From IMG/VR virus record IMGVR_UViG_3300012983_000043: DNA of 64,000 bases; one strand, written 5' to 3'. The notes under the pieces were generated by a model that searched no databases, was not told the origin of the DNA, and worked only from the letters and a program-made list of their open reading frames with translations. The position numbers and the translations under genes were made by a program. Source of the stretch: an uncultured virus (IMG/VR IMGVR_UViG_3300012983_000043) (lineage: Duplodnaviria > Heunggongvirae > Uroviricota > Caudoviricetes). Of the stretch, positions 16,941 through 55,862 are shown one piece after another. Within the stretch, counting starts at the first letter, position 1, and every line of letters starts with the position of its first letter.

Positions 16941-18431
16941 TTATGCAATGTCTCCATCGGTCTGCTTAAGACGAATCTTCTGCCCCCAGTCATTGAAGTC
17001 TTCAGTTCCATCTTTTGTTATAATCCAAAGGGTAGGCAAACCTGTAGGATTCTTTGGAATGTTGTCAATAAATCCGTCAGTTAACACTAAACATGCGTCA
17101 ACATCCATCTGTTCATCAATGATAGCATTTAGACCGGGAAGCATTGACGTCCCGCCACCGCCCGTCATAGCATATTCACCAGTCTCAATGATGCTTTCAA
17201 GATTATCATCTTGAGTGAAGTGCTTAATAGATCCAACTTCACAATCGCATTCAATCAAGTACAATGAGTACTGACCGAAGCTTTTGATCAGGCTATTGAG
17301 TTCTCCAAGAAAGATTCCACGGTCACCACAGGTAGAACCGCTCGTGTCGATAATGCATGCCAACTTGATTTTGCTAGACTGACGACTCTGTAGATATACA
17401 TCATTGTGCACATGCCTGCGATTTGGCGGAATCCAAGAGCGGTTGCCAGAGTTGTAAGCTCGAGTCACGAACTGTGCTAAGACTTCCTGCCAACGAATTT
17501 GTGGAGTCATTATTTTCTTCACAAGCTCCTTCACATGTGCTGGCACATTGCCCTTCATCTTCTCTACGCGTTGCGCTTCAGAGATGACCGTCTCACGCAT
17601 ACGATCCGCAAAACCTTTGGGTACGCTTGGCTGGAAATCAGAGTCAATTCCAACCTCACCATATTTGTCAGTGATCTTGGAAGTGTACTCACCATCTTTT
17701 CCATTAGAATTATTTCCATTTCCATTGGACTGGCCATCATTGGCGTTTTTGTTAGGCTGGTCACCTTCATAGATGTGCTTGTCAAACTGACCCTTGAGCT
17801 CACCATCAGGATTTCCACCAGAGTCAGACTCATCATTGTCATCATCATTTTCATTAGACTGGTTGGAAGAGCTTGACGAACCAGAGCTTTTCTGCTTCTT
17901 GTTGTTCTGCTTGCCGCTTGAAGAAGAGCTGGAAGATCCATTTCCACTACCATTAGCAGTCTGCTGCTTCTGCTTCTTCTGCTTCTTGAGAAGCATCTCA
18001 TAGATTTCTTCGGCACACTTGCCTACTTCATTGCCTTCAGGGAAGCAGAGATCAGCTGGAGGAACTAAGCCATCTTCCTTGAGCAGATAGTTGACTTCCT
18101 TGTCTGTAGCAATGTTGAACAATGCCGGATTGCGGTTGCCACGACGAGTGAGATGAAGCAGGACGGCGTGCCAGACCTCATGCGCAAGCACGAAGATGCG
18201 CTCTTCATTTGAGAGAGAAGAGAGGAATGCAATGTCAAAGTAGACACAGTTGCCGTCAGTGCAAGCTGTACGGACTCGAATGTCACGAACTGGCACAAGA
18301 TCCATGCGCAGCGCAATGGAACCGATGAATGGATACTTAGTGAGAAGCACATGCCGAGAGTGAGAAAGCACGTCAAGCGCCTTCTTCTTCAGGATTTTGA
18401 GCTCTTCTTCAGTGATTGTGTTAGCTTTCAT
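16941..18431 (-). CDS. DUF2201-type metallopeptidase plus VWA-like domain protein
   Basis: TACTDG, LAHEVWH (HExxH), low-complexity linker, IDTSGS, GGGGT, LTDG. Confidence 0.88.
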   Translation of the reverse strand: MKANTITEEELKILKKKALDVLSHSRHVLLTKYPFIGSIALRMDLVPVRDIRVRTACTDGNCVYFDIAFLSSLSNEERIFVLAHEVWHAVLLHLTRRGNRNPALFNIATDKEVNYLLKEDGLVPPADLCFPEGNEVGKCAEEIYEMLLKKQKKQKQQTANGSGNGSSSSSSSGKQNNKKQKSSGSSSSSNQSNENDDDNDESDSGGNPDGELKGQFDKHIYEGDQPNKNANDGQSNGNGNNSNGKDGEYTSKITDKYGEVGIDSDFQPSVPKGFADRMRETVISEAQRVEKMKGNVPAHVKELVKKIMTPQIRWQEVLAQFVTRAYNSGNRSWIPPNRRHVHNDVYLQSRQSSKIKLACIIDTSGSTCGDRGIFLGELNSLIKSFGQYSLYLIECDCEVGSIKHFTQDDNLESIIETGEYAMTGGGGTSMLPGLNAIIDEQMDVDACLVLTDGFIDNIPKNPTGLPTLWIITKDGTEDFNDWGQKIRLKQTDGDIA

Positions 18432-18796: not shown

Positions 18797-19942
18797 TCAG
18801 AAGTCAATCCGAGTGTGCTTGGTAGCAAGCTCCTTGTACTTGTCTAGTGTGGAGCGATACAATGGGTGGCGGTAGAGCTTCTTGGCAGAGACGCCGGAGA
18901 GCTCTTCTGAGCGGCCATACATAGCGCCATTGATGCACATCATGATGAACTCAGGACGCATCTTCTGGAGAATCTTGAAGAAGCCGTCCAGGCGCTTGTG
19001 CTCATCCTCTTCATCCTTGCCGCGCCACAGGACATACACAAGGCTGGAGCACATAGCGTAGAGCTGGTCATTCTTCTCAGGAATCTTGATGGGCGCCTTG
19101 CCATAGAGCATGTCGATGATGTTGTCGAAGTTCTTGTTGAGGCGGTGGAATTCAATGTACTCAACACCCTTAGCAGGACCCACAAGGCCATATACGATCT
19201 TCCGGAGAAGCTCTTCATTGTTGCCGTAGATTTTTGTCATCTGAGAGACACGGTCCCACGACCGAGGTGAGGGCCATCCACGCTCAAGGTTCTCCTTCTC
19301 CATGTTGAAGAGATTCATAGGCCGGTACTGGATGAAGCCGATAACCGAAGGGTGTACATCGTGAGTCATAGCCCACTTGCACCACTGTTGGTCATCAACG
19401 TCAAGTTCCACATGCATGAAGCGGTTCGAGAGGGCCGAGGACATGCTCATGGCAACGGCACGGTCAGTGGTGAGGTTGCCAGCAGAGACGATGTACCAGC
19501 CATCCGGCACCTTGTAGAAGTCACCAATCTTGCGGTCGAGGATGAGCTCATACGCAGCCACCTGGCAGGACTTGTCGCAAGAAGTGATCTCATCCAGGAA
19601 GATGATGCCCTTGGAGTTGGGGTCACGAGGCCAGAAGTCAGGGGCGTTCCACTTCATCACGCCCTTGTCCTTGTCAACCGAAGGAAGTCCACGGATGTCC
19701 ACCGACTCCATTTCTGCCAAGCGGACGTCTACGAAGCCAATGCCGAGTTTCTGAGCCACCTGCCGGACAATCGAGCTCTTGCCGACGCCAGGCGAAGAAT
19801 GGATGAGAATCGGAGGAATAGTTGCCGCCAAGCCCGGATTGTCAATGATGAGCTGGCAGTTGGTCTTAAGGATCTCCTCAAGCTCGGGGATAGACATGCG
19901 GTTGTGCGTGTCGATTGCGATGGAGTCATTTTTTGTAGCCAT
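18797..19942 (-). CDS. MoxR-like AAA+ ATPase
   Basis: Walker A SSPGVGKS, Walker B IIFLDE, SAGN, ALSNRF, PSPRSW. Confidence 0.9.
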   Translation of the reverse strand: MATKNDSIAIDTHNRMSIPELEEILKTNCQLIIDNPGLAATIPPILIHSSPGVGKSSIVRQVAQKLGIGFVDVRLAEMESVDIRGLPSVDKDKGVMKWNAPDFWPRDPNSKGIIFLDEITSCDKSCQVAAYELILDRKIGDFYKVPDGWYIVSAGNLTTDRAVAMSMSSALSNRFMHVELDVDDQQWCKWAMTHDVHPSVIGFIQYRPMNLFNMEKENLERGWPSPRSWDRVSQMTKIYGNNEELLRKIVYGLVGPAKGVEYIEFHRLNKNFDNIIDMLYGKAPIKIPEKNDQLYAMCSSLVYVLWRGKDEEDEHKRLDGFFKILQKMRPEFIMMCINGAMYGRSEELSGVSAKKLYRHPLYRSTLDKYKELATKHTRIDF

Positions 19943-22475: not shown

Positions 22476-23764
22476 TCAGTCTTCTATCCAATTTCCATCA
22501 TCTTTGAGATAATCCTCTTCAAAAGAATCATCTTTTGCATCACTCCAACCCTGAGAATATGCTTCTTGCACAACTTCTAAAATGTCATTTAAAATGCTAT
22601 TTCTGTCAAGCGCTATAGAATAGAAATCTAAAATAGATTCGACTCTTTTCTTGAATTTTTCATCCATGTCAATCTTCCATGATGTCATCAACCATCTCTG
22701 GTGTGATTCCCAAGTCAACACGTCCCTTGAGCTCAAGAGCTTTGAGCTTGTTCATGACTGTCAGCTGCTTCGTCAGTTCTTGCGCTGCTATAGCCAATGT
22801 ATGATAGAAGTCTTCTTCAAAGCGCGTCATTTACTTGTCTCCTTTGTTTTTGACTAAATTATATCAAATTGCGCGCACGGTTTTCACTCAACCACTTGTC
22901 TACATAGTCATATAAGACTTTGCCAGTCCTTAAGTCAATTGTCTTGACAGTGTATGTCTTCCAATTGAGATCAAATAGCCAGTTCTCAAAGTCAGGCGAA
23001 GTCTGTTTGTTGAAGCCAGCATTCACTATCATCTCTTCAAATGTCATTGGCTCACTAGAGAAAGAATTGCTTTTGTCTCTATGCCAAGACATGACTGCAC
23101 CTTCATGTGTTATCATCTTGCACTTTGGATGCTTGCATGTCAAAAAGTTCTTGTATGTCCTGTATGGCACATCGCATGGACGCACAAGCGCATAGTCAAA
23201 CTTGTCAGGATCAAATTTGAAGTCTCGTGTGTCAATCTTCCAGATTTTTTCTACAACTGCAGTGTTGTTGCTTTTCATGATTCGAAGTCTATCTTTATAT
23301 TATTCATGTCTGCCCAGACTAGAAGCTCTTCTTTATTTGAAGAAGAAGCTATAGTAAACCATATTGGAATATTGTTATATGTCTTAATGCCATTCAAGTA
23401 CCATGCTCTTGTTCCATGGTGCAAGTTACATGAATTGAATATGACATTTTGATTCACTTTGTATATGTCAATCATATTGATTGCTTACATTGATGATTTG
23501 TCCAAATAAACCATATTGATTGTCTGCGATGAATTGCCCATATGAATAGTTTTCAATTGTCTTGTCTATAGTGATGTTATGGACATCAGCCCATACACGA
23601 ATTTCATCTTCATTGTCTGAATCTACAATGAAATGCACACGTTTTTTGTCAAATATTCCAATCAACTGCCAATTCATCATGAAATAGTCATCTCTATAAT
23701 TAAGAACAAATTTGTCATATTTGTCATATGGCAGTGTATGTCCAATCACTTGAAGCATCTTCAC
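22476..23764 (-). CDS. run of small hypothetical genes (about 22476-22674, 22859-23278, 23275-23475, 23468-23764)
   Basis: Overlapping start/stop codons; tags SNKEELLVWADMN and DNEDEIRVWADVH. Confidence 0.65.
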
Positions 23765-24930
23765 TCCTTGTAGCCAAGATATTTCAGAATCTTCTCAGTC
23801 GGCACATTCATGAAGAAGTCTCTGACTGATGCAATCTTCTTGTCAAGAAGTCCGAATGCTAATCCGGGAATCTTGAAGTTCTTAGTTATCCACAGAGCTT
23901 TGTCTTTTCGTGTCTGCAAGCTAGAATCTACTTTTAGATATTCATTCCATTCATTCTCTGAGTCTTCAACTAATTTCCAGAATCTTGTCTTGCACTCTTC
24001 AAGAGCTGCACGGAACTCCTCAAAGTACTCACATATCTCTTCTATCTCATTTGCACGGACAAGCTCAATAGCTCTAGCATATGACATCGTCCCATTCCCT
24101 TTGAGATGGTGAGCAGCTACATATGATGGAGATTTCACCTTCACTCTGTTGAACTTTCCATCACATACAACATATCCCTCTTCATCCCATGGCATTTCTT
24201 TTGTTGCAGCTAAGCATTCATCAATTGACTTCAAAGGAAAGACTTTTGGAGTGTCAAACAGCTTTGAGAAGACGGGGTCATCAGTGAAGTAAGTCTCCTC
24301 AAAAGTCTCATTGTTGCGCTTTCCAAGAAAGTAGAGTTTGTTCTCTTTATGAGGCACTACTACACGAGTCCATGGAGAGCATAACTCAAACATGTACGTG
24401 TAGCCTTCTTCCCAAAGAGCACATAGTCCTTCCTCTTGCAGCTTCTTCTGCCAGCCAGACTTCTCAAGAACAGCATCAAGCTGCTCAGCTACAATGTCAC
24501 CAAAGAAGCTGTATCTGCAGCCGAGCTGCTCTGCAATAGGTGCCTTAGAAGCAAGAATAGTCCCATTAGTAGAGATAAGCAAGTTGTCACCAACATTCAC
24601 AATCTTAATCAAGCTTCCATCTACCTTCTCTCCACAGCGAGCCGTAGTCCAGTCAATCTCTGGGCAGTATCCTTCTCCATAGTTTCCAAACTTCATGAAA
24701 GGAAATGAGACAATCTCATTGGTGTCTTCATTGAGAATCAAGCCACGGCACTCACGCACAATTGGCTCATTGAAGTCAGAATCAACTTGAGAGTACTTGA
24801 GCATCAAGAGATTCATGCCATTCCACTGCTCCCTTGACATAGTCAAGCAATATGGCTTCTCAGACAGCAGCTTCTCCCAGTCATCTGGATGCTGCTCAAT
24901 GAAGTTTTGAACTAGAAGTTTCTTTTTCAT
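23761..24930 (-). CDS. T4 Rnl1-like ATP-dependent RNA ligase
   Basis: ECRGLIL, FPFMKFGNYGE, motif I EKVDGS, TYMFEL, motif IV EGYVV, motif V RVKVKS..Y. Confidence 0.9.
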   Translation of the reverse strand: MKKKLLVQNFIEQHPDDWEKLLSEKPYCLTMSREQWNGMNLLMLKYSQVDSDFNEPIVRECRGLILNEDTNEIVSFPFMKFGNYGEGYCPEIDWTTARCGEKVDGSLIKIVNVGDNLLISTNGTILASKAPIAEQLGCRYSFFGDIVAEQLDAVLEKSGWQKKLQEEGLCALWEEGYTYMFELCSPWTRVVVPHKENKLYFLGKRNNETFEETYFTDDPVFSKLFDTPKVFPLKSIDECLAATKEMPWDEEGYVVCDGKFNRVKVKSPSYVAAHHLKGNGTMSYARAIELVRANEIEEICEYFEEFRAALEECKTRFWKLVEDSENEWNEYLKVDSSLQTRKDKALWITKNFKIPGLAFGLLDKKIASVRDFFMNVPTEKILKYLGYKE

Positions 24931-33124: not shown

Positions 33125-33427
33125 TTATAGCATCATGTCAACTGCAATGAGAATCTCTTCAAGTGACTTCTTCTCAGGTGCATAGCCGATGAACTTGTTG
33201 TCTTTGAAGACGCGTCCATGAATTCCATTCTTCTCAATGTCTTCTAAGATTGTCCTAAGTCCGCCTTCATGACCAATCATGTAGTAGAGATGCTTGTTGT
33301 CTTCGAAGTCAATTTCAACACTGAATTCATCAACAAACACTTCCACACCATAGCTTTCACATATCTTCTCAAGCTTAGTAAGAGATGATGGCTTTCGCTT
33401 GTGCTTTGTCTTTTTGTTTGATGGCAT
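33125..33427 (-). CDS. hypothetical protein with C-terminal tag
   Basis: KSLEEILIAVDMML. Confidence 0.7.
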   Translation of the reverse strand: MPSNKKTKHKRKPSSLTKLEKICESYGVEVFVDEFSVEIDFEDNKHLYYMIGHEGGLRTILEDIEKNGIHGRVFKDNKFIGYAPEKKSLEEILIAVDMML

Positions 33428-33441
33428 ATCATTCTTCTAAA

Positions 33442-33516
33442 TGGCTGAGGATGAACGAGTCGAACGTTCACTCTCGGTATCAAAAACCGATTTGCTCACC
33501 GCTACAACAATCCTCA
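33442..33516 (-). tRNA. tRNA-Gln(UUG)
   Basis: TGAGGAT/ATCCTCA acceptor, TCGGT-TTTTGAT-ACCGA, TTCGA, CCA. Confidence 0.9.
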
Positions 33517-33523
33517 AGTAAAA

Positions 33524-33598
33524 TGGTACGCCCAACGCTGCTCGAACTTGTAACTCCAATGTTAAAGTATCATTGCTCTACCAACTGAGTTAGGGCAT
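33524..33598 (-). pseudogene. degenerate tRNA pseudogene
   Basis: CTCAGTTGGTAGAGC D-arm, GTTCGA and ACCA present; anticodon and T stems do not pair canonically. Confidence 0.6.
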
Positions 33599-33651
33599 TT
33601 AAACATTCTGTATTTAAATTATATCAATTAACATTGTATTTTTATACTCAA

Positions 33652-34542
33652 TTAACCGCGTTTTTTGCCACGTGATGATTTATATTCAGGCAAATAGCAT
33701 TTACATAATCCAACAAAATTTGCCTATGAATATTGATAATCAAAATGTTCTTTAAATTTCTACCATCCATGATTGACATAATATTCATACATAGGTCTTA
33801 ATTCAGCAATTCGTTTTGGTTTGATTTCATTTTCACGTTTTTTCATGTAAAAATGCTTAAGCATCATCTTTCCATGTTCATTTAGTGGTTTTCCACGTTT
33901 TTCAAAACTAAATGGAATTGGATCATCTTTATTGATATATTTGACTTCATTAGTATTTGGATTAAATATTTTGCATTTATTTTTAGTGCTTTGTGAAAAT
34001 TCTTTCAATTGAGATATTACTTTATCAGTTATAGTCTAATACATTCCATATTCCCAACCATCAGGAAGCATTTCTGATTTAAGAATGACTTTTGATTCTT
34101 TCGTTGTTGGATTGCGAATCCAACAACGCTTCTTCATTGGATTATTTTCTCCTTTATTTGCTTCACTTGCAATTTTTGAAGCAAGCTTTCCAAATTCTTC
34201 TCTAGCCTATTGATAGTCTTCAGACATCAAAATGAAATCTCTCAATTCTTTTCGACTTCCATTTACAGTTCCTTTGTGCATGTTCATCAATGCACAAAGC
34301 ATCTAATCATGAAATTCATCATCATGATGAATGATCCAAAGATACACATGAGCCATAAAATGCTCTTTTGCAAGAAGAGCTATTTTATTCTCTTCAACAT
34401 CTAAACCATTCATTGAAGTTGGAATGATATGATGTATCTCTATTCTTCCTGGATGTTCTTTTGACTTAATCAAGACATTCTATTTTCTATATGCAACTAA
34501 GTCATTATAAGCTTTCTAAGCTTCTTCTTTTGTCATTGTCAT
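33652..34542 (-). CDS. HNH homing-type endonuclease, TAG-recoded
   Basis: EIHHIIPTSMNG.D...N...L.AKEHFMAH; multiple in-frame TAG; GTAAATA at 34580-34586. Confidence 0.8.
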
Positions 34543-34647
34543 TTTCTTTTTACCTTTTCTGTCATTGCTGTGACATTTTTATTTACTTTTTTATATAAAA
34601 TAATATACCCAAATCTGTTGGCAGCAACCATGAGTTTGGGTATAAAA

Positions 34648-34797
34648 TGGTCACAGTGATGAGAGTTGAACTCACTTAACCCTGATTATGGAGCTGGGTG
34701 AGGATTCCGAGACCTCATATTCCGTCTTACAAGGACGGCTCTTAACCGTTCAGACAACCCAGCAAAGTCAGGTGCATATCCGTTTTGCTACACTGTG
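34648..34797 (-). tRNA. tRNA-Lys(UUU), split in the anticodon by a nested tRNA-Thr (halves 34764-34797 and 34648-34688)
   Basis: CACAGTG...CCTGA-CTTT | TAA-TCAGG...CACTGTG-A-CCA. Confidence 0.88.
34689..34763 (-). tRNA. tRNA-Thr(UGU) nested inside tRNA-Lys
   Basis: GCTGGGT/ACCCAGC-T-CCA; CCGTC-CTTGTAA-GACGG. Confidence 0.88.
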
Positions 34798-34806
34798 CAA
34801 TAAATT

Positions 34807-34897
34807 TGGTCGCCAGAACGAGAGTTGCACTCGTACACAGTTTTTAACCTGCACTGGATTTTGAGTCCAGCTCGTCTGCTTATTCCGACATCTGGCG
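34807..34897 (-). tRNA. tRNA-Leu(CAA)
   Basis: CTGGA-CTCAAAA-TCCAG, long variable arm, ACCA. Confidence 0.9.
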
Positions 34898-34921
34898 AAA
34901 TCATCTTTATTCTATCAAAAA

Positions 34922-35443
34922 TCAATCTTCTTTAAACAACTTCTTGTCAGCATTCAACTTCTTTGCTGCATCCATGAATTCATTCAACCTGTCTTTCACT
35001 TCAAGAAGACTTCTTTTCAAATCATAGTTCTCTTCTTCTACCTCTAGAATCCGTCTTGACATATCCGACACCAGCTTATGCTGTGCATCATCACTGACAG
35101 AGACATTTGCAATCAAGTCTCTGATGCAAGAGGGCTCTTGCTCAAGCTCTGCAACATATCCCTCTGTCTCTAGTCTGATGAGAAGCTCATGAATGTCTTT
35201 AGCATTGAAATCATGTATCAATTCAGTGTGGTCTTCAAGTATGATGCTCTTCCGCTGTTTAATGTCAAGACTGTTGAGTTTTGCAATTCTTGTGTATCTT
35301 CTGGTATGCAAGAAGATGCGTCCAATGTTCATGTCATCATAGAACACAACATGACCTAAGTTCTTCATGTCATCAAGCTTGGCAATTGCCAAATCAGACC
35401 AGTCATCATCAACTAAAAGGACATATTTTGTCTTTTCACTCAT
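34922..35443 (-). CDS. hypothetical protein, internal tag plus coiled coil
   Basis: KDIHELLIRLE; layout like 24927-25352. Confidence 0.7.
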   Translation of the reverse strand: MSEKTKYVLLVDDDWSDLAIAKLDDMKNLGHVVFYDDMNIGRIFLHTRRYTRIAKLNSLDIKQRKSIILEDHTELIHDFNAKDIHELLIRLETEGYVAELEQEPSCIRDLIANVSVSDDAQHKLVSDMSRRILEVEEENYDLKRSLLEVKDRLNEFMDAAKKLNADKKLFKED

Positions 35444-35988
35444 CAGTGAACTCCAGCTTTCAAGTCTGCCCAGACTATCAGTTCGTCAATTGATGAGACA
35501 TCAGGCGTCTTGTATTCAGAATATTTTTTAATTTCATGCAGTGGTCTATTGATCAATCTATCTGCTACAGCGTCAAACAGAACATTGAATCTCATTGTTG
35601 CAGCTGTGCCGTAATTGCACTTTATTGCGTCTGACACAGCTCGATTGATTCTGCTGAACACAACATTCACTAGCTTTCTTTCATCAAGATGGAATTCACT
35701 GACTAGCTCTTCAAGAGAGACAATCTGCTCTCTAAGCATGATGCGTGGATTTGCCTTTTTGAAGAGAGAATCTACTTTGCCAAATGATCCAATGTCATCA
35801 CTCCATCGATTGTATGACAAGCGGTAGTAGTTGTTGCTAGTGTCTTTCACTCTGAAGAAGAATCTGTTCTTGAGGCTGGTTGCATTCACATAGAAGACTG
35901 GCTTGCCAGCTGGCACAACGGCCGCTGCAAATGCATAGATGAATTGCTTCATCTCTTCAAAAGAATGTCTTTTGCTAGTTGTCTTCAT
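35443..35988 (-). CDS. hypothetical protein with C-terminal tag
   Basis: SSIDELIVWADLKAGVH; start approximate. Confidence 0.7.
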   Translation of the reverse strand: MKTTSKRHSFEEMKQFIYAFAAAVVPAGKPVFYVNATSLKNRFFFRVKDTSNNYYRLSYNRWSDDIGSFGKVDSLFKKANPRIMLREQIVSLEELVSEFHLDERKLVNVVFSRINRAVSDAIKCNYGTAATMRFNVLFDAVADRLINRPLHEIKKYSEYKTPDVSSIDELIVWADLKAGVH

Positions 35989-36139
35989 GTGTCTGATCTC
36001 AAAAAACTTGCATGCACCTATCACCGCATGCATTCATGCTGGAGACATATTGTCCAAGCATAGAATGAATGCATGCTCTTGTATGTTAGTTGTTGTGTCA
36101 CTGGAGTTGACGAAGCGTCCACGCTTTTGCATGCAATGC

Positions 36140-36286
36140 TGGCATCCCTGAGAGGACTCGGACCTCCAACCACAAGCTTATGATGCCAAGCGCAAGACTC
36201 GAACTTGCATTTTCCTAATATGCTAGGATGTCTTGCATTAGACGAACTTGACGAAGGCTCGTGCTCTTCCATTGAGCTACAGGGAC
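36140..36286 (-). tRNA. tRNA-Arg(UCU), split in the anticodon (halves 36253-36286 and 36140-36180)
   Basis: GTCCCTG-TA-GCTC..GAGC-A-CGAGC-CTTC | TAA-GCTTG...CAGGGAT-G-CCA. Confidence 0.88.
36181..36252 (-). ncRNA. 72-nt tRNA-like insert without a canonical anticodon loop
   Basis: GTCAAGT/GCTTGGC acceptor, GTCT/AGAC D-stem, TCCTAG-CATA-TTAGGA, GCAAG-TTCGAGT-CTTGC, ends A-TCA. Confidence 0.85.
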
Positions 36287-36294
36287 TTCAAACA

Positions 36295-36763
36295 TCACTT
36301 GTTCTTGCCGCGGCCCTTCTCCTTGCGCCGCTTGATCTCCTTGTGCACGCCCGGAGCAGTTCCCTTTGCCCACTCTTCAAGCACAGCATTTGACACGCAC
36401 CTGACAACGGGCTTGATCTTTGTCAAGAAGTAGTATTGCTTGCTTGAACGGTTCTTCACTGGCGGGACATGTGTTCCTGGAATCTGAATCATCTTTTGTT
36501 CTCCAATTTATTTTGTTTCAATTATATCAAATTCTTCTCAAGTCTTTCACTCAAGCATTGTAGATCTGGCCCTTCCAGCGATATACATTCTGGCGCTCAA
36601 TCTTGCCAGTCCTCTTGTTCTTGTATGTCTTTGATGACTGCCCATATGCAATCTCTACACCAGTTGCTCCAGCAGGAATCAATGTCTTAGATGTCTCTGC
36701 ATCCCAGACAGGATATTTAGTCGGCTTGCCAAGCGGCTTGAAGTCATATTCATTCATAGTAGT
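36295..36763 (-). CDS. two small hypothetical genes (36295-36492, about 36551-36757)
   Basis: Track ORFs, RBS, promoter element between them. Confidence 0.55.
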
Positions 36764-36937
36764 TTCCTTTTCACTTTCCATAGATTCCAAAGATCAAGAT
36801 GACAATGAATGCAATGATGCCAAGCACACAACCGCATCCGGCTCGAATTGCATCATCACGAGCAAACTCTTCTTTTTCTTGTTGGTTGTCATTCATGGTT
36901 GAATTATATCATATTGCATATGATTCTTTAACTCAAT

Positions 36938-37012
36938 TGGTGCCTCTGCTAGGAATTGAACCTAGCTTACATGGATGAAAACCATGTGTACTAACCGCTA
37001 TACGACAGAGGC
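36938..37012 (-). tRNA. tRNA-Glu(UUC)
   Basis: CATGG-TTTTCAT-CCATG; GCCTCTG/CAGAGGC-A-CCA. Confidence 0.92.
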
Positions 37013-37066
37013 AATTTAATTGATTGTCTTGATTTCAGACAAAATAGCAGTCATATTTGCATAGCA

Positions 37067-37504
37067 TCAAGCATCATATACAGGACCGCCTTGTTCAGAG
37101 CCGCCGCCATTGACAAGAATTGTTTCATCTTGTCTTCCATCACTGATCCTGTCAAGCGCATTCTTCAATATAGTGTCAAATGCATCACCGCTTAATGCAG
37201 ATGAAAGTGCATCAGGCAATTCATTAGTAAGCACTTGCTCTGCTATTCTTGCAACTTCTTCTTCAAGAGCTTCCGTCAATGCATCTTGCACAGCTTGTCC
37301 GACAATAGACGATATCTGTGGCGTGAGCTCATTCTTCACTTTTGCTTTTATGTAGTTAGAGTAAGTTCCGACCTGAAGCTTCTTTGACTCAAATGGATAT
37401 TTTCCACCTGTGTGGTCTGACACAAGAAGCAGGTCATTGTTGTCAATGCTCGACTATGCCATCTCTGGCAGCTGTGATATCTTGAAAGACTTAGTTGTTG
37501 CCAT
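37067..37504 (-). CDS. hypothetical late-type protein, TAG-recoded
   Basis: MATTKSFKISQLPEMA(Q)SSIDNNDLLLVSD continues into the track ORF. Confidence 0.65.
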
Positions 37505-37751
37505 TTTCATTTGCCTCATTGCATTCTTCTTTTGTCAGCCTGAACTTCTCTAATTCATCTAGAAAGAACTTATCACCGAATTCATTTATCAACCAGCAAT
37601 ACTCATCATAGTCGGGTGACTCTTCTGGTATGCCTCCGCCAATGACATAAGGCGCAAACTTTCTTGCAATTGCTTGTGCTCTCATCAGACGAGCATATGC
37701 AGCTTGCCGCTGCTAGTTGATCTTCCACCAATATATCTAAGTAGCTGTCAT
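37491..37751 (-). CDS. hypothetical protein, TAG-recoded
   Basis: MTAT(Q)IYWWKIN(Q)QRQAAYARLMRAQ...; GTAAATA at 37757-37763. Confidence 0.65.
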
Positions 37752-37770
37752 GATTTTATTTACTTCAAGT

Positions 37771-37864
37771 TGGTGACAGGGGATGGATTCGAACCACCGA
37801 TGTTTACCACTTAGGTACGAGTTTTACAGACTCGCGTCTTCGGCCAGCTAGACAAAACCCTGCC
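37771..37864 (-). tRNA. tRNA-Tyr(GUA)
   Basis: CGAGT-CTGTAAA-ACTCG, long variable arm, GTTCGAAT, ACCA. Confidence 0.9.
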
Positions 37865-37876
37865 AATAAACTCAAA

Positions 37877-37952
37877 TGGTAGGCGATGAGTGAGTCGAAC
37901 ACTCCTAAGCTCCTTATAAGAGAGCAGTAATCAACCGATATACGAATCGCCC
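37877..37952 (-). tRNA. tRNA-Ile(UAU)
   Basis: GCTCT-CTTATAA-GGAGC; GTTCGACT; ACCA. Confidence 0.88.
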
Positions 37953-38137
37953 ATAAATCGCGGAGGGTTTTTTGTTGAGCCATCACATAAATGTGCTTGC
38001 GGCGTTATATTCAACATAATGAGCTTAACATCACGTCTAATGAAACTCCAACCCACAACTTCTTGCAAGTGACTGCTGTGTCTCAAGCAGCTTTCATTGA
38101 CATATTATCAAATTTCATTTGACTTTAAACTAAATTC

Positions 38138-38211
38138 TGGAGCGCCGTGCGGATCCCGAGACCGCATATCCAGCTTGGAAGGCTGGCATTCTGCCTTTGA
38201 ATTAACAGCGC
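38138..38211 (-). tRNA. tRNA-Gly(UCC)
   Basis: CCAGC-CTTCCAA-GCTGG; GCG start, T-CCA end. Confidence 0.9.
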
Positions 38212-38225
38212 ATACATTAAAAAGA

Positions 38226-38490
38226 ATGCTCACATATCTGACTGGAACTTGCAACAAATGAGGTACCTAAGTCAGCAAGCCTTCGGCGCTATTCACCAAA
38301 CTGTTCAGTATTCCATTATTGATGCTTTAATAGACACATCTTTCAATTTTCAGGTATGCACCTTCGCAATCAGCATGACTCTCAGTTGTCTGCTCACCTT
38401 AGATATGGGGCATTTGACTCCCCAATGAGGTGTAAGGCTGCCGTTGAAGCATTAAGCATACGAGGTCTGACTCCCTCTCTACATGAGCAT
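38226..38490 (-). ncRNA. candidate ~265-nt structured RNA
   Basis: ORF-free; closed by ATGCTCATGTA/TATGTGAGCAT helix; internal GGG/CCC and CTGACT/AGTCAG complements. Confidence 0.45.
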
Positions 38491-38539
38491 AATAAAACTA
38501 ATTTTTGTAATAAGATTTAAACTTACAATCTTATTATAC

Positions 38540-39349
38540 TTAAGAACAATTTCTAAAAATATTTTCAAGCTATTTAACTACATTGTTTTTAGGACGAATT
38601 CTTATAGTCATATAGCCATTCTTCAATGCAATTTCATCTTTTTGCTTATCTGCTATATTTCCTTCAGGATGCCAAAATTCTCCATCAATTTCAATAAATA
38701 GCTTTTTTAAAGGAATATAAAAATCTACAAAACGTTTTATATTTTCAAAACAAAATTCTTTTTGGTGTTCAAAAATAATATTATGCTTTGATAACCAATC
38801 AAATGCAACTTGTTCAGGATAAGTCATCTATTTTCTATTTCCTGCTAATTTACGATTAGGATGTTTTTCAGGATGTTCTGTATAAAACTTCTTCTTTTTT
38901 TCTGACTAAGCTTTACGTTTTTCATCTGTCCAATATAATGAAGAACATCTATTTATTATAGATCCATTTGCTATACCTTCTTTCATAGCAATTGAAACTG
39001 CTTTAGAATTACGTTTTACACGTTCATCGGTTTCTTTTGTAAGACCTTTATTCCAAGCATATATTCTTCCATCTTCTCCAATTTTAACATGATTATTATG
39101 AATATGTTTTTGTAATTCATTTTTTGTTTTACAAATCTTATTACAATGTTTACATTTCCATGTTCCAAATGGAGCAGTCTGTTTAGAATGATCCTATTTT
39201 ATTCCACGTCTCTTTAAACCAAGAGCAATATAATCAATGGATAATGATGCCATTGCACTAGCACAGGATTTTGAACAAAATCTTCCAGAACCATAAGATC
39301 CATCATGTTCTTTTTTACATTTTGGATTTTCACAAATATATTTTTTCAT
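38540..39349 (-). CDS. Vsr/DUF559-like (EDxHD-type) endonuclease with zinc-finger N-terminus, TAG-recoded
   Basis: CENPKC..HDGSYGSGRFCSKSC; TYPE...FVDFY...IEIDGEFWH...KD; GTAAATA at 39355-39361. Confidence 0.8.
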
Positions 39350-39389
39350 AAAAATATTTACTCAAGCGCATTACTAAACTCATCTAAAT

Positions 39390-39465
39390 TGGTCGGAGCG
39401 CCAGGTGCTGCCCCTGGACCTTCGGTTCCCAAAACCGGCGTGCAAAGCTGTTATACCACGCTCCG
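39390..39465 (-). tRNA. tRNA-Pro(UGG)
   Basis: CCGGT-TTTGGGA-ACCGA; CGGAGCG/CGCTCCG-A-CCA; atypical GGCAGCA T-loop. Confidence 0.88.
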
Positions 39466-39472
39466 AAATCAA

Positions 39473-39620
39473 TGGTGGACCTGATCGGTGCTGCCCCGAT
39501 TCAATGATGCTTGAGGAGCTGAGACTAAGACTCGAACTTAGATCTTCCTAAGTTGCTAGGATGTCTTGCATTAGACGACCTCAACCAAAGCACCCGTGTT
39601 TGCTGATTCACTACAGGCCC
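39473..39620 (-). tRNA. tRNA-Ala(UGC), split in the anticodon (halves 39586-39620 and 39473-39513)
   Basis: GGGCCTG/CAGGTCC-A-CCA with G3:U70; GGTGC-TTTG | CAA-GCATC. Confidence 0.88.
39514..39585 (-). ncRNA. 72-nt tRNA-like insert, homolog of 36181-36252
   Basis: GTTGAGG/TCTCAGC acceptor; shares CGTCTAATGCAAGACATCCTAGCA..TTAGGAA and AAGTTCGAGTCTT; ends T-CCT. Confidence 0.85.
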
Positions 39621-39630
39621 AAATAAAATT

Positions 39631-39785
39631 CTCATGTGGGTGGACTCGAACCACCAAGCTTTCGCGGCAGATTATGGACGATCTATCTGGAGTTGCACCA
39701 GAATCGCAGCCATTCTCATGATTGCATTCTACTATTTAACTATAGACCGACAGTCTGCTGAGGCTACCGATTTCTCCACACATGA
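39631..39785 (-). tRNA. tRNA-Asn(GUU), split in the anticodon (halves 39750-39785 and 39631-39674)
   Basis: TCATGTG/CACATGA-G; GCAGA-CTGT | TAA-TCTGC; GGTGG-TTCGAGT-CCACC; CCA not encoded. Confidence 0.85.
39675..39749 (-). ncRNA. 75-nt tRNA-like insert
   Basis: CGGTCTA/TAGATCG-T-CCA; TCTGG-TGCAACT-CCAGA; extended irregular anticodon arm. Confidence 0.8.
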
Positions 39786-39795
39786 ATAAATTGTT

Positions 39796-39919
39796 TGGTC
39801 CGGCAAGGAGACCACTACTTCTCCAATGCTAAGCTTTCACATATGATCATGCACTTAGCGCCCACCTCAATGCGGGTGTGTCTATGGCGAGACTCTACGT
39901 CTCTTTGCACCATTGCCGA
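39796..39919 (-). ncRNA. 124-nt enlarged tRNA-like RNA
   Basis: TCGGCAA/TTGCCGG-A-CCA; GGAGA/TCTCC; extra GAGAC/GTCTC hairpin; CCCGC-ATTGAG-GTGGG; long GCTAAG/CTTAGC arm. Confidence 0.65.
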
Positions 39920-39923
39920 AATT

Positions 39924-40085
39924 TAGCGGGTGTGGGAAATGCTCCCAACGTGGATGTTATCCGGGAGGTTTGGACAATCGGTCAAGACTCGAACTTGAAT
40001 TGCTTTCTACTTAATTCAAAAGTGTTTTACATCTTAAACTACCGGTTGATGGGCCTCCTGACTTTGACTTCTAGTCTAACCCGCA
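39924..40085 (-). tRNA. initiator-like tRNA-Met(CAU), split in the anticodon loop (halves 40049-40085 and 39924-39970)
   Basis: GCGGGT/ACCCGC with 1:72 mismatch; GGAGG-CCCAT | AA-CCTCC. Confidence 0.82.
39971..40048 (-). ncRNA. 78-nt tRNA-like insert
   Basis: CAACCGG/CCGATTG-T-CCA; GTTT/AAAC D-stem; TCAAG-TTCGAGT-CTTGA; irregular anticodon arm. Confidence 0.8.
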
Positions 40086-40329
40086 ATTAAATTCTCTATT
40101 CAGAAGCTCACAACTTCTGACAAACCAACTTCAATTTTCAAAGAACAATTATATTATACATCAATGCCAAAGCATTATATACTTTTATTTCATCTTAGGG
40201 CACTTGTAGTTTGCATGATTGTCAACTGCAGGACACAGAGCATTGTCTTTGCATGCTTCACATGTCTGCTTGCTTGGCTTCACTGCAGGTTTGTCTTTGA
40301 GAATTTTCTTGTTCATATTGTCAATTCAT

Positions 40330-52306: not shown

Positions 52307-52702
52307 TCACTCAACAATGATCTCGCCTGGATAGTCTTCCATAGACTTCTTGAAGTTGTCAACAAGACTGTCGCTCAATCCATGCACATTCTTGAAATTG
52401 CCTGTGCATCTGTAGACATCAAAGCTTGCACCGATCTCATCAGCGATCTTCTTGTATGCATCTACAAAGGCTCGTTTTGTGAATGTATTGGCCACAACAA
52501 CATCAAAGTGATTCTCTAAAGCCGTTCTAGCCATATTCATGCACCATTCTATAGCAGCTGGCATATTCTCTTTATGCCAGTCATAGACTCCATTGTGCAT
52601 ATGATACTGATCATTCTCAAGTAAAAGCGTATTTGGAAACATACGCTTAGCAGCAGAGCTCTTGCCACTGCCCGGTGCACCTCTGTATAAGATCAATTTC
52701 AT
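52307..52702 (-). CDS. AAA_33/PNK-like P-loop kinase
   Basis: LYRGAPGSGKS, VVVANTF, NVHG. Confidence 0.8.
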   Translation of the reverse strand: MKLILYRGAPGSGKSSAAKRMFPNTLLLENDQYHMHNGVYDWHKENMPAAIEWCMNMARTALENHFDVVVANTFTKRAFVDAYKKIADEIGASFDVYRCTGNFKNVHGLSDSLVDNFKKSMEDYPGEIIVE

Positions 52703-55786: not shown

Positions 55787-55862
55787 TGGTCCGGGTGGCT
55801 GGAATTGCACCAGCGTATGCGGGCTTATAAGACTCGTCCTAGAACTGCTAAGGGACACCCGG
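55787..55862 (-). tRNA. tRNA-Ile(UAU), second unrelated copy
   Basis: CCGGGTG/CACCCGG-A-CCA; CGAGT-CTTATAA-GCCCG (one mismatch). Confidence 0.75.

What the first reader, a model, noticed from the sequence alone, without database searches (positions are those of the whole stretch)
39631..39785. Split tRNA-Asn with an unrelated tRNA-like insert
Insert 39675-39749 is unrelated in sequence to the Arg/Ala inserts (TGCAACT T-loop, long irregular arm capped by GAGA) but uses the same 35/36 site. This suggests independent capture events by a site-specific mechanism, such as ligation into a cleaved anticodon followed by return to DNA (inference). The outer tRNA also has a small extra variable hairpin, unusual for Asn.
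Basis: partly seen in the sequence, partly recalled or inferred. Interest (0 to 1): 0.75.

Follow-up and report, generated by a model that had tools for sequence, protein, structure and literature searches.

The report
tRNA-shaped inserts splitting phage tRNA genes
A phage from ruminant gut samples has four tRNA genes, this asparagine one among them, each split inside the anticodon by a whole tRNA or tRNA look-alike; this is a bare form of the still unexplained introns known from Lak megaphages, and its shape suggests removal by ordinary tRNA-trimming enzymes.

Summary
On the minus strand, 39785..39631 is a tRNA split between anticodon nucleotides 35 and 36 by a 75-nt insert (39749..39675). 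The insert is a tRNA-like RNA: Rfam tRNA 32.2 bits, a 7-bp acceptor stem with G3:U70, a D arm, a T arm, a discriminator and CCA. It has a GAGA-capped hairpin where the anticodon arm should be. Removing exactly these 75 nt gives a gene that ARAGORN calls tRNA-Asn(GTT).

It is one of four such nests in this cluster: Lys[Thr], Arg[X], Ala[X'] and Asn[Y]. All four sit at 35/36, and each insert ends three bases past its discriminator.

The odd variable arm is explained: the outer body is a Tyr-type scaffold.

The kind is not new. Devoto et al. 2019 reported "enigmatic" tRNA introns in Lak megaphages, one holding a tRNA. This scan also noted nested tRNAs before on other DNA (CPR bacteria, and one phage tRNA-Lys). 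The bare form is new: no leader hairpin, a CCA-type end, and a site inside the anticodon. I found two more bare nests in IMG/VR contigs.

My best reading (about 0.4) is a tRNA-shaped intron. RNase P and a tRNA 3'-end nuclease would cut it out, and the phage's Rnl1 ligase would seal the outer tRNA. No step of this is shown by RNA data. The main rival is that the outer genes are dead shells.

The parts
39750..39785 (-). Nest d, outer tRNA 5' half (nt 1-35): acceptor 5' strand, D arm, anticodon stem 5' strand and loop CTGT.
   Evidence: ARAGORN calls Asn(gtt) once the insert is removed.
39675..39749 (-). Nest d, insert Y. It is a 75-nt anticodon-less tRNA-like RNA with G3:U70, T loop TGCAACT, a GAGA-capped 7-bp hairpin in place of the anticodon arm, discriminator T and CCA.
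   Evidence: Rfam tRNA 32.2 bits. L005 changes the D loop and the T loop together.
39631..39674 (-). Nest d, outer tRNA 3' half (nt 36-73): TAA, anticodon stem 3' strand, the 11-nt Tyr-type variable arm, T arm, acceptor 3' strand and G73. No CCA is encoded.
   Evidence: The variable arm and T stem are identical to those of the tRNA-Tyr genes in L002-L004.
39473..39620 (-). Nest c. The outer gene is tRNA-Ala(TGC) with G3:U70, A73, CCA and the odd T loop GGCAGCA. It is split at 35/36 by insert X' (39514-39585), which ends T+CCT.
   Evidence: Rfam tRNA 36.0 bits for the insert. The excised outer gene folds as a cloverleaf, but ARAGORN does not call it.
36140..36286 (-). Nest b. The outer gene is tRNA-Arg(TCT), split at 35/36 by insert X (36181-36252), which ends A+TCA.
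   Evidence: Rfam tRNA 34.6 bits. ARAGORN calls Arg(tct) after excision. X and X' show 5 compensatory pairs of 21.
34648..34797 (-). Nest a. The outer gene is tRNA-Lys(TTT), split at 35/36 by a complete tRNA-Thr(TGT) with CCA (34689-34763).
   Evidence: ARAGORN default calls the inner Thr. Rfam scores it 40.6 bits. ARAGORN calls Lys(ttt) after excision.
23761..24930 (-). T4 RnlA-type RNA ligase 1 (389 aa), the candidate sealing enzyme.
   Evidence: PHROG 562, E 9.2e-52. Pfam RNA_lig_T4_1, 63.6 bits against a cut-off of 28.3. Aligns to T4 Rnl1 (2c5u) with the KxDG lysine in register.
52307..52702 (-). Small P-loop kinase-like ORF (131 aa). It is only weakly like a polynucleotide kinase.
   Evidence: PHROG 505 'polynucleotide kinase', E 3.6e-11, and PHROG 2071 ATPase, E 6.2e-22. 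Pfam AAA_33. No match among solved structures.

Best explanation
The stretch is a composite gene. The outer part is an Asn-reading tRNA (GUU anticodon, G73) built on a Tyr-type body. It is interrupted between anticodon nucleotides 35 and 36 by a 75-nt tRNA-shaped RNA that has no anticodon and ends in CCA. It is one of four such nests in the phage's tRNA cluster.

Proposed mechanism:
1. The cluster is transcribed as precursors in which both cloverleaves fold. This is shown only as predicted folds.
2. Host RNase P cuts at the insert's +1 base. That leaves the outer 5' half ending in a 3'-OH at nt 35. This step is inferred.
3. A tRNA 3'-end endonuclease cuts right after the insert's CCA-type tail. 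Candidates are an RNase Z that cuts behind an encoded CCA, or RNase E. The cut frees the insert and leaves a 5'-phosphate on nt 36. This step is inferred, and the enzyme is unknown.
4. The two outer halves stay held together by the acceptor and anticodon stems as a tRNA nicked in its anticodon. The phage's Rnl1-type ligase seals the nick and restores a 7-nt loop. This step is inferred.

The freed inserts are products in their own right. One is a normal tRNA-Thr. X, X' and Y are non-decoding tRNA-like RNAs of unknown use.
For: Architecture:
- In 4 of 4 nests the insert runs from the first acceptor base to three bases past the discriminator (tails CCA, TCA, CCT, CCA).
- Removing exactly that leaves a 7-nt loop with U33, A37 and A38.
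- ARAGORN then of 4 outer genes: Lys ttt, Arg tct, Asn gtt. The fourth folds as a cloverleaf.
- The minimum-energy folds of precursors a and b are a cloverleaf inside a cloverleaf.

The outer genes look alive:
- The outer Ala keeps G3:U70 and A73, and the outer Asn has G73. The sequences are read; the identity rules are recalled.
- No uninterrupted Lys, Arg, Ala or Asn tRNA is found in the window.
- Three of the four outer anticodons carry U34, as do six of the uninterrupted tRNAs (Gln, Glu, Gly, Pro and both Ile). AGA is the commonest Arg codon here, and GCA makes up 41% of Ala codons.

The inserts are under selection as tRNA folds:
- X and X' differ at 16 of 72 columns. Ten of these make 5 compensatory pairs, and 100% of pair cells stay paired.
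- In L005 the insert Y changes its D loop (AATAGTA to AATGGTA) and its T loop (TGCAACT to TTCAAGT) together. All 4 substitutions in the 155 nt lie in loops.
- The elbow and the acceptor/T arm, which are what is conserved, are what RNase P and RNase Z are known to recognise (recalled).

Enzymes:
- An Rnl1 ligase with its catalytic lysine motif lies in the window.
- One-step cleavage right behind an encoded CCA is known. T. maritima and archaeal RNase Z do it, and RNase E does in some cases (passages of PMC7479834).

Parallel case: in Lak-A1 against Lak-C1 the insert's 3' end is exactly the inner tRNA's discriminator, and Lak tRNA genes lack CCA. In both phages the 3' junction is therefore the inner tRNA's own 3'-processing site.
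Against: - No RNA evidence of any cut or joint exists, and the enzyme for the 3' cut is not identified.
- Outer gene d has no encoded CCA, unlike the other three nests and the nine uninterrupted tRNAs listed. It also has an atypical body.
- Outer gene c has a non-standard T loop, and outer gene b has C at position 55.
- The relatives in hand are only 1-3% diverged. The intact shells could therefore simply be young.
- Nest b is replaced by 101 other letters in contigs of runs X3 and X6, so it is dispensable.
- Other viral records do not show a ligase link. Among five IMG/VR records with nested or intron-bearing tRNAs, 0 of 5 had an Rnl1-family match, 0 of 5 had RtcB, and 2 of 5 had an Rnl2-type RNA_ligase match, 1 of them over the cut-off. 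The window's Rnl1 protein matched 0 of 5 records: four of those five plus Lak-A1. The two records with bare nests had none of the three families, though they are only 72% and 22% complete.
- One of those bare nests (L028/L130) leaves a 10-nt residual loop without a clean U33, read by eye. ARAGORN's alternative stem still gives 8 nt. It looks like a dead shell.
- In Lak a 31-nt leader lies between the 5' junction and the inner tRNA. RNase P alone cannot make that 5' cut.
Confidence: 0.42

Rival explanations
1. Dead shells. A tRNA or tRNA-like gene was inserted into each of four resident tRNA genes and destroyed them. Only the inner RNAs are made and used, and the outer halves are waste that has not yet decayed.
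For: - The relatives are nearly identical (97-100%), so intact stems need no selection to explain them.
- Nest b is replaced in X3 and X6 contigs.
- Outer gene d lacks CCA, and outer genes b and c have odd T loops.
- The bare nest in L130 has a 10-nt residual loop.
- No ligase was found in the two other records with bare nests.
- Earlier notes of this scan read the CPR nests as disrupted shells (unchecked here).
Against: - Four shells in one cluster all keep perfect stems, U33, A37, A38 and fitting identity bases (G3:U70 with A73 in Ala; G73 in Asn).
- Three of the four inserts cannot decode, so unlike the CPR cases they do not replace the tRNA that is lost.
- The window would then lack Lys, Arg(UCU), Ala and Asn tRNAs.
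- The L131 cluster would likewise have Arg(UCU) only as a shell.
Confidence: 0.28
2. RNA-level capture, the first reader's idea, taken as an account of origin rather than function. A mature tRNA with 5'-phosphate and CCA-3'-OH was ligated by the phage RNA ligase into a tRNA cut at 35/36. The product was reverse-transcribed and recombined into the genome. This can coexist with either reading above.
For: - The inserts run exactly from +1 to a CCA-type end with no extra bases.
- They share a structural site but no shared DNA word at the flanks.
- They fall into three unrelated families.
- An Rnl1 ligase is present.
Against: - No reverse transcriptase and no anticodon nuclease were found among 79 ORFs or the 44 scanned with Pfam. 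Only 64 kb is visible.
- The phage's own tRNA genes already encode CCA, so a CCA end does not prove an RNA intermediate.
- The Lak insert has a 31-nt leader and no CCA, so the closest relative of the phenomenon did not arise from a mature tRNA.
- From memory, I know of no nuclease that cuts Lys, Arg, Ala and Asn tRNAs at 35/36.
Confidence: 0.15
3. The nicked tRNA or the halves are themselves the product. The inner tRNA-like element works as a processing signal, a kind of tRNA punctuation, that deliberately releases 5' and 3' tRNA halves or non-decoding tRNA look-alikes. These would act as decoys or regulators against tRNA-targeting host defences, with no ligation.
For: - X, X' and Y are conserved as folds yet cannot decode.
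- Y carries G3:U70 and CCA, so it could be charged with alanine (this rule is recalled).
- The nested set Lys(UUU), Thr(UGU), Asn(GUU) equals the target set reported for the PARIS nuclease AriB (passages of PMC12409363).
Against: - It does not explain why exact excision restores a canonical 7-nt loop and identity bases in 4 of 4 nests.
- No defence or counter-defence gene lies next to the cluster.
Confidence: 0.08
4. Assembly chimera or sequencing artefact.
For: None.
Against: The same arrangement stands in JGI contigs L001 and L005 and in contigs of separate runs from different studies (X1 record 6, X3 record 17).
Confidence: 0.01

Closest known systems
'Enigmatic' tRNA introns of Lak megaphages (Devoto et al. 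2019, PMC6784885). I read passages of the main text and Table S6. I checked the case on Lak-A1 and Lak-C1 DNA.
   Same: - Phage tRNA genes are interrupted in the anticodon loop by a 79-141-nt insert holding a tRNA or tRNA-like acceptor/T-arm element. One of them, in Thr(TGT), is recognised by Rfam (30.4 bits).
- The element's 3' end abuts the 3' exon.
- The indel is precise among relatives.
- The phage encodes an RNA ligase (RnlB in their Table S7).
- No mechanism is known.
   Different: - Lak inserts start with a short hairpin and an A-rich spacer (31 nt in Thr). They sit at 36/37 and end at the discriminator without CCA.
- Here the insert is the bare tRNA from +1 to a CCA-type tail, sits at 35/36 inside the anticodon, and occurs four times in one cluster. 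The ligase is Rnl1.
- The window has 40% G+C against 26% for Lak (their Table 1). Its Rnl1 protein found no match in Lak-A1.
Phage T4 Rnl1 plus Pnkp repair of tRNA-Lys cut by the PrrC anticodon nuclease (recalled knowledge).
   Same: An Rnl1-family ligase with the KxDG lysine is present. The proposed substrate is a tRNA nicked in its anticodon loop and held together by its stems.
   Different: - Here the nick would come from programmed excision of an insert at 35/36, with 3'-OH and 5'-P ends that need no healing.
- In T4 the break is made by a host nuclease 5' of the wobble base and leaves cyclic-phosphate and 5'-OH ends.
- No clear Pnkp is present: only a 131-aa P-loop ORF and two calcineurin-type phosphoesterases.
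tRNA-like elements used as processing signals: mitochondrial tRNA punctuation, plant t-elements, MALAT1 mascRNA (recalled; PMC1920247 seen only in the listing).
   Same: A tRNA-shaped fold would direct RNase P and RNase Z to cut a longer transcript at its two ends.
   Different: Those elements sit between or at the ends of RNAs. None sits inside another tRNA's anticodon, and none needs the flanks to be re-joined.
Archaeal and eukaryal protein-spliced tRNA introns (bulge-helix-bulge, mostly 37/38) and split tRNAs (reviews PMC4090602 and PMC3400036 seen in the listing; the rest is recalled).
   Same: A short intron in the anticodon loop, removed by proteins and joined by an RNA ligase.
   Different: There is no bulge-helix-bulge. 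Both junctions lie in one internal loop (4 nt against 7 nt) between the outer anticodon stem and the insert's acceptor stem. The site is 35/36, and the setting is a bacterial virus.
Nested 'Russian-doll' tRNA genes of CPR/Patescibacteria noted earlier in this scan (AI notes, not checked here).
   Same: A complete tRNA sits inside the anticodon loop of another tRNA gene.
   Different: Per those notes, the CPR inserts carry a hairpin stalk and a replacement tRNA with the same anticodon, and lie in cellular genomes. Here there is no stalk, the identity differs or is non-decoding, and the genome is a phage.
Self-splicing group I introns in bacterial and phage tRNA anticodon loops.
   Same: Position in the anticodon loop of a bacterial-type tRNA.
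   Different: The insert is 72-75 nt. It matches the tRNA model and no intron family in Rfam.

Membership tests
Lak-type phage tRNA introns (Devoto et al. 2019) | A phage tRNA gene interrupted in the anticodon loop; exact removal restores a 7-nt loop. | tested here: met
   for the window (4 of 4 nests). for Lak-A1 against Lak-C1.
Lak-type phage tRNA introns (Devoto et al. 2019) | The insert holds a tRNA-like acceptor/T-arm element whose 3' end abuts the 3' exon. | tested here: met
   In the window the tail is the discriminator plus 3 nt. In the Lak Thr gene it is the discriminator alone.
Lak-type phage tRNA introns (Devoto et al. 2019) | A 5' leader (short hairpin plus A-rich spacer) ahead of the tRNA-like element. 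| tested here: not met
   In all four nests the insert starts at the acceptor's first base. Lak has a 31-nt leader (Table S6).
Lak-type phage tRNA introns (Devoto et al. 2019) | Insertion between nt 36 and 37. | tested here: not met
   The window uses 35/36 in 4 of 4 nests. Lak Thr uses 36/37.
Lak-type phage tRNA introns (Devoto et al. 2019) | Filled and empty alleles of the same tRNA gene among relatives. | tested here: inconclusive
   Nests a, c and d are kept in every laid contig that covers them. Nest b is replaced by 101 unrelated letters in X3 and X6, which is not an empty site.
Group I intron | A conserved catalytic core, usually over 200 nt, matching the Rfam Intron_gpI model. | tested here: not met
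   No such match at E up to 1-10. The insert is 75 nt and matches the tRNA model.
Bulge-helix-bulge (archaeal/eukaryal) tRNA intron | Two 3-nt bulges separated by a 4-bp helix at the splice sites. | tested here: not met
   The predicted precursor folds put both junctions in one 4 x 7-nt internal loop.
Bulge-helix-bulge (archaeal/eukaryal) tRNA intron | A splicing endonuclease (EndA/Sen) in the genome or host. | not testable with these tools
   The host is unknown. There was no such hit among 79 ORFs.
T4-type tRNA repair (Rnl1 plus Pnkp) | An Rnl1-family ligase with the nucleotidyl-transferase lysine. | tested here: met
T4-type tRNA repair (Rnl1 plus Pnkp) | A bifunctional polynucleotide kinase-phosphatase. 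| tested here: inconclusive
   Only a 131-aa P-loop ORF (PHROG 505, E 3.6e-11) and two metallophosphoesterases were found.
tRNA-Asn (outer gene d) | A GUU anticodon and G73 (identity rules recalled). | tested here: met
   The loop is CTGT|TAA and the discriminator is G. ARAGORN calls Asn after excision.
tRNA-Asn (outer gene d) | A class I body with a short (4-5 nt) variable loop. | tested here: not met
   It has an 11-nt variable arm identical to that of the tRNA-Tyr(GTA) genes in L002-L004.
CPR nested replacement-tRNA cassettes (earlier notes of this scan) | An inner tRNA with the same anticodon as the outer one, carried on a hairpin stalk. | tested here: not met
   The inner identities differ or are non-decoding, and there is no stalk.

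The most novel reading that the evidence does not exclude
Bacterial viruses would have a protein-only tRNA splicing pathway with no dedicated splicing nuclease. The intron is itself tRNA-shaped, so the cell's RNase P and tRNA 3'-end nuclease excise it. A phage RNA ligase (Rnl1 here, Rnl2 in Lak) then joins the exons inside the anticodon. That would give phage RNA ligases a routine job beyond repair and explain the Lak 'enigmatic introns'. It would also make each nest a two-for-one gene whose second product (X, Y) is a non-decoding RNA, possibly chargeable with alanine, with a function of its own.
Probability: 0.35. Interest if true: 0.9.

Novelty: new variant of a known kind. Interest (0 to 1): 0.72.

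Why it matters
Introns in phage tRNA genes were reported in 2019 without any mechanism. The five literature searches I ran on nested tRNAs and phage tRNA introns found no follow-up.

The four nests here are the simplest form yet seen. The insert is nothing but a tRNA fold with a CCA-type tail, so the only plausible handles for its removal are the universal tRNA end-processing enzymes. The nick they would leave is the textbook substrate of the Rnl1 ligase that this phage encodes. That turns an open question into a bench test with three purified enzymes and a 155-nt transcript.

If splicing is real, it would be a new route of tRNA maturation in bacteria. It would also be a new reason for phages to carry RNA ligases, and a source of anticodon-less tRNA look-alikes that may matter in the contest over tRNAs between phages and host defences. 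If the shells are dead, the nests still record a precise, structure-guided way of inserting tRNAs into tRNA genes that needs explaining.

There is a practical point too. Standard tRNA finders miss or misname these genes. Default ARAGORN missed all four outer genes. Its intron mode called Lys as Gln and Asn as Asp, mis-placed the Arg intron (calling Lys), and missed Ala.

Tried and rejected
Searches for relatives:
- No megablast or blastn match in 50,697 phage records.
- No match in IMG/VR to three exact tRNA patterns, to the Rnl1 protein, or to a profile of the cluster ORF 35443-36033.
- No match in genome contigs.
- Homologues of that ORF (31 proteins, 39-93% identity) exist only in ENA and Logan assemblies.
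- The single metagenome scan gave 5 loci. Two are relatives (L001, L005). Three are unrelated tRNA-Tyr genes.

RNA evidence: the look-up of sequencing runs listed no RNA holder, so nothing can be said about expression or joints.

Genome-wide checks: no whole genome is held. The search for a reverse transcriptase or nuclease therefore covers only this window.

Genetic code:
- Reading TGA as sense (code 4) only lengthens off-frame ORFs. For example, the 46-codon extension beyond the Rnl1 stop holds 5 TGA. I rejected it.
- Reading TAG as sense raises minus-strand ORF cover from 0.60 to 0.70, and TAA as sense raises it to 0.67. This is not decisive for the window as a whole.

Other structured RNA near the nest:
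- 39786-39970 has a fold z-score of -1.47 and 38212-38500 has +0.19, so neither is significant.
- There is no group I intron or other Rfam family in the region.

Healing enzymes: searches of solved structures for the two phosphoesterases and the kinase-like ORF gave only a hypothetical protein (1xm7) or nothing. One search failed because the range held stops.

Ligase co-occurrence in five other viral records did not support a link. These records are fragments.

ARAGORN's readings of nest d as Asp(gtc) and of nest a as Gln(ttg) were rejected. They need intron ends that do not match the insert's acceptor stem.

A passage in PMC12409363 says that PrrC cuts tRNA-Lys between U35 and U36. This conflicts with what I recall, which is a cut 5' of the wobble base, so I did not use it.
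Full report
WHAT THE WINDOW IS

The window looks like part of a large phage.
- Genes lie mostly on the minus strand and are small.
- Phage-type hits include T4-type RNA ligase 1, a MoxR-like ATPase with a DUF2201/VWA partner, DenV-type glycosylase, dCMP deaminase and two TnpB/Cas12f-like ORFs.
- No whole genome is held, and there is no nucleotide match in 50,697 phage records.
- Contigs from gut metagenome runs cover parts of 33400-40100 at about 87-99% identity: X2 sheep, X3 bovine, X1 'gut', X6 unlabelled.

THE OBSERVATION

On the minus strand, 39785..39631 is a tRNA whose anticodon loop is interrupted.

The outer gene has these parts:
- acceptor TCATGTG/CACATGA and discriminator G;
- a 3-bp D stem and anticodon stem GCAGA/TCTGC;
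- an 11-nt variable arm;
- a canonical T arm;
- no encoded CCA.

Between loop letters CTGT and TAA lie 75 nt (39749..39675). These form acceptor CGGTCTA/TAGATCG (with G3:U70), a D arm and T arm TCTGG-TGCAACT-CCAGA, followed by discriminator T and CCA.
- Rfam's tRNA model scores this 32.2 bits, above the gathering score of 29.
- The Rfam alignment shows that the anticodon arm is replaced. By eye it is a 7-bp hairpin with one A.C mismatch, capped by GAGA.
- Cutting out exactly these 75 nt gives ARAGORN tRNA-Asn(gtt).
- ARAGORN's own intron mode shifts the intron by one base and reads Asp(gtc). That reading does not fit the insert's acceptor stem.
- Thirty dinucleotide shuffles of the window gave one ARAGORN call in all, against 11 real ones.

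IT IS ONE OF FOUR

The same cluster holds four nests:
- (a) 34797..34648 is Lys(TTT), split by a normal tRNA-Thr(TGT)+CCA (Rfam 40.6 bits).
- (b) 36286..36140 is Arg(TCT), split by a tRNA-like X (34.6 bits) that ends A+TCA.
- (c) 39620..39473 is Ala(TGC), split by X' (36.0 bits) that ends T+CCT.
- (d) is the finding.

In 4 of 4 the insert starts at its first acceptor base directly after outer nt 35. It ends three bases after its discriminator, and outer nt 36 follows. In-silico excision leaves U33, A37 and A38 each time. ARAGORN then of 4 outer genes. It does not call the Ala gene because of that gene's T loop GGCAGCA, but the gene folds as a cloverleaf.

X and X' have a 6-nt loop where an anticodon loop should be, and Y has a tetraloop. 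Three of the four inserts therefore cannot decode.

THE INSERTS ARE SELECTED AS FOLDS

- X and X' differ at 16 of 72 columns. Ten of these form 5 compensatory pairs, and all 42 pair cells stay paired. Sliding the partners drops pairing to 26-48%.
- The JGI contig L005 is 97.0% identical over 609 nt. It keeps nest d with 4 substitutions, all in loops.
- One of these is in the outer D loop. The other three turn Y's D loop from AATAGTA to AATGGTA and its T loop from TGCAACT to TTCAAGT. That is a joint switch of the two loops that form the tRNA elbow.
- Within the window the same link holds. The 5 tRNAs with a non-standard T loop at positions 54/55 all lack the D-loop GG. These are Leu, Ile2 and Y with TGCAAYT, and Pro and the outer Ala with GGCAGCA (read).

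WHAT THE RELATIVES SHOW

- L001 is identical, possibly from the same population.
- X1 record 6 covers 39473-39955 with 4 differences. X3 record 17 covers 39466-40078 with 16. X3 record 13 and X6 record 19 cover nest a.
- Nest b (36137-36294) is replaced by 101 other letters in X3 and X6.
- Other contigs join at tRNA boundaries (34647 to 37770; 33449 to 34646).
- The tRNA-like gene at 39971-40048 is missing from contigs of X1, X3 and X6.
- None of the 40 listed base differences falls inside a nest. However, 595 differences were not shown, so this is weak evidence.
- The cluster is modular and the nests are shared. Divergence is too low to tell whether the outer stems are under selection.

THE ODD BODY OF THE OUTER GENE

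The pattern search also hit three unrelated contigs. Their tRNA-Tyr(GTA) genes carry the identical variable arm and T stem. Outer gene d is therefore a Tyr-type scaffold with U36 and G73. The Tyr genes, including the window's own, have A73. With GUU and G73 it should be read as Asn (identity rules recalled).

PRECEDENT

Five literature searches on nested tRNAs and phage tRNA introns were run. The first four found nothing on a tRNA inside a phage tRNA; the fifth found only the paper below.

- The text says that Lak megaphage tRNAs have 'enigmatic introns' and that the Thr(TGT) intron 'itself may encode a tRNA'.
- Table S6 prints the sequences.
- By eye, every Lak intron is a short hairpin, then an A-rich spacer, then an acceptor/T-arm element.

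I fetched Lak-A1 and Lak-C1 to check.
- ARAGORN and Rfam find the inner tRNA (30.4 bits).
- The alignment shows a 114-nt insert between nt 36 and 37 (CTTGT|...|AA).
- It is made of a 31-nt leader plus an 83-nt tRNA.
- It ends exactly at the inner discriminator.
- The outer Thr gene there does not encode CCA.

So the kind is known but unexplained. The window shows a new, bare variant.

MORE BARE NESTS ELSEWHERE

I scanned IMG/VR for two canonical T loops 24-46 nt apart.
- 17 of the 122 have an ARAGORN intron call of 40 nt or more. These include Lak-like inserts with a hairpin leader, such as L021, L096, L104 and L124, read by eye.
- I removed each of the 117 default tRNA calls, give or take a few bases, and asked ARAGORN to call a tRNA across the junction. 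Four gave an outer shell.
- L066 and L028 are bare nests, L104 is a leader type, and L120 is doubtful.
- In L066/L131 a tRNA-Phe(GAA) with tail A+CCC sits between nt 34 and 35 of an otherwise perfect Arg(TCT) gene with CCA. That 12-tRNA cluster has no other Arg gene.
- In L028/L130 a tRNA-Ile(GAT)+CCA sits in a paralogous shell whose residual loop is 10 nt. That looks degenerate.

Bare nests therefore recur in unrelated viral contigs. The junction varies between lineages (34/35, 35/36, 36/37) but is uniform within this phage.

MECHANISM

What is shown:
- the fold;
- the exact boundaries;
- selection on the insert's fold;
- an Rnl1 ligase 9-15 kb away with its KxDG lysine.

What is inferred:
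- RNase P cuts at the insert's +1 base.
- An endonuclease cuts right after the CCA-type tail. Passages of PMC7479834 say that T. maritima and archaeal RNase Z cut just behind an encoded CCA, and that RNase E sometimes makes the mature CCA end directly.
- The resulting nick, 3'-OH at nt 35 and 5'-P at nt 36, is sealed by Rnl1.

A regularity across systems supports boundaries set by processing. In this phage, whose tRNA genes encode CCA, the 3' junction lies after a CCA-type tail. In Lak, where the gene examined does not encode CCA, it lies after the discriminator.

Against the model:
- There is no RNA evidence.
- The 3' nuclease is unknown.
- The Lak leader needs a different 5' cut.
- A ligase link is not seen elsewhere. 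Among five IMG/VR records with nested or intron-bearing tRNAs, Rnl1 family was found in 0 of 5, RtcB in 0 of 5 and Rnl2-type RNA_ligase in 2 of 5.
- The window's Rnl1 protein matched 0 of 5 records: four of those five plus Lak-A1.
- The two bare-nest records have none of the three families, though they are 72% and 22% complete.

Independent, structure-guided insertions are supported.
- There are three insert families.
- X sits in two unrelated outer genes.
- The flanks share no DNA word.

Ligation of a mature tRNA followed by return to DNA remains possible for this phage. It has no support from a reverse transcriptase or an anticodon nuclease in the 79 ORFs examined or the 44 of them scanned with Pfam. 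The Lak insert is not a mature tRNA.

VERDICT

This is a real and striking feature. It is a new variant of a published but unexplained kind, and it is directly testable. The splicing reading has a confidence of about 0.4. The dead-shell reading, at about 0.3, is the main rival.

Noticed in passing
window 38539-39349 (-): This is an ORF of about 270 codons between the Pro and Gly tRNA genes. It has four in-frame TAG codons and ends in TAA. Read with TAG=Q, its C-terminal part matches DUF559, a Vsr-like endonuclease (E 1.6e-5), across two of the TAGs. It may be a homing-endonuclease-like gene that needs TAG read-through, or a pseudogene. In an X1 contig the stretch 38321-39472 is replaced by 520 other bases.
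   Followed up: partly
window 39971-40048 (-): A tRNA-like gene with CCA (Rfam 35.7 bits) has a 10-nt anticodon loop. ARAGORN reads it as a TTA 'stop' anticodon, or as Leu with a 3-nt intron. It is absent from contigs of X1, X3 and X6, where 14-28 other bases stand in its place. It could be linked to the TAG-containing ORF nearby.
   Followed up: partly
window 33442-40048 and 55787-55862 (-): The cluster has three non-standard T-loop types: TGCAAYT (Leu, Ile2, insert Y), GGCAGCA (Pro 39390-39465 and the outer Ala) and CTCGGRA (inner Thr, Gly). The first two types (5 of 5 genes) lack the D-loop GG. This suggests alternative tRNA elbows rather than decay (read). ARAGORN misses the Pro and outer Ala genes.
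   Followed up: partly
window 34648-34688 and 39631-39674 (-): The 3' half of the outer Lys starts TAATCA. These are the same six letters that PMC12409363 gives as the AriB (PARIS) site U36AAUC|A41 of E. coli tRNA-Lys(UUU). The nested set Lys(UUU), Thr(UGU), Asn(GUU) equals AriB's reported target set. This may be coincidence, or a hint that the nests relate to tRNA-targeting defence.
   Followed up: no
window 33400-40100: In relatives the tRNA cluster is rearranged at tRNA gene boundaries. Joints run 34647 to 37770 (X6) and 33449 to 34646 (X3), and nest b is swapped for 101 other bases (X3, X6). The tRNA genes behave as exchangeable cassettes.
   Followed up: partly
window 4990-5556 (-) and 14357-15262 (+): Two TnpB/Cas12f-like ORFs of 188 and 301 aa are present (Pfam Cas12f1-like_TNB and OrfB_IS605). 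The first looks truncated.
   Followed up: no
window 16941-18431 and 18797-19942 (-): A DUF2201 metallopeptidase/VWA-like protein lies next to a MoxR-like AAA ATPase. The ATPase is about 31% identical to ATPases of cyanophages and PA5oct-like jumbo phages.
   Followed up: no
L131 9805-9962 (IMG/VR record G002) and L130 6709-6862 (G001): Two further bare nests were found in unrelated viral contigs. In one, tRNA-Phe(GAA) with tail A+CCC sits inside Arg(TCT) at 34/35. In the other, tRNA-Ile(GAT)+CCA sits inside a paralogous CAT-type shell with a 10-nt residual loop.
   Followed up: partly
IMG/VR loci (for example L063, L093, L101): In 42 of 122 loci a normal tRNA gene is followed within 24-46 nt by a second T-arm hairpin that belongs to no ARAGORN-called gene. 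Three of these are the nests L028, L066 and L104. The rest are probably tRNA 3' fragments left at integration sites, but they were not examined.
   Followed up: no
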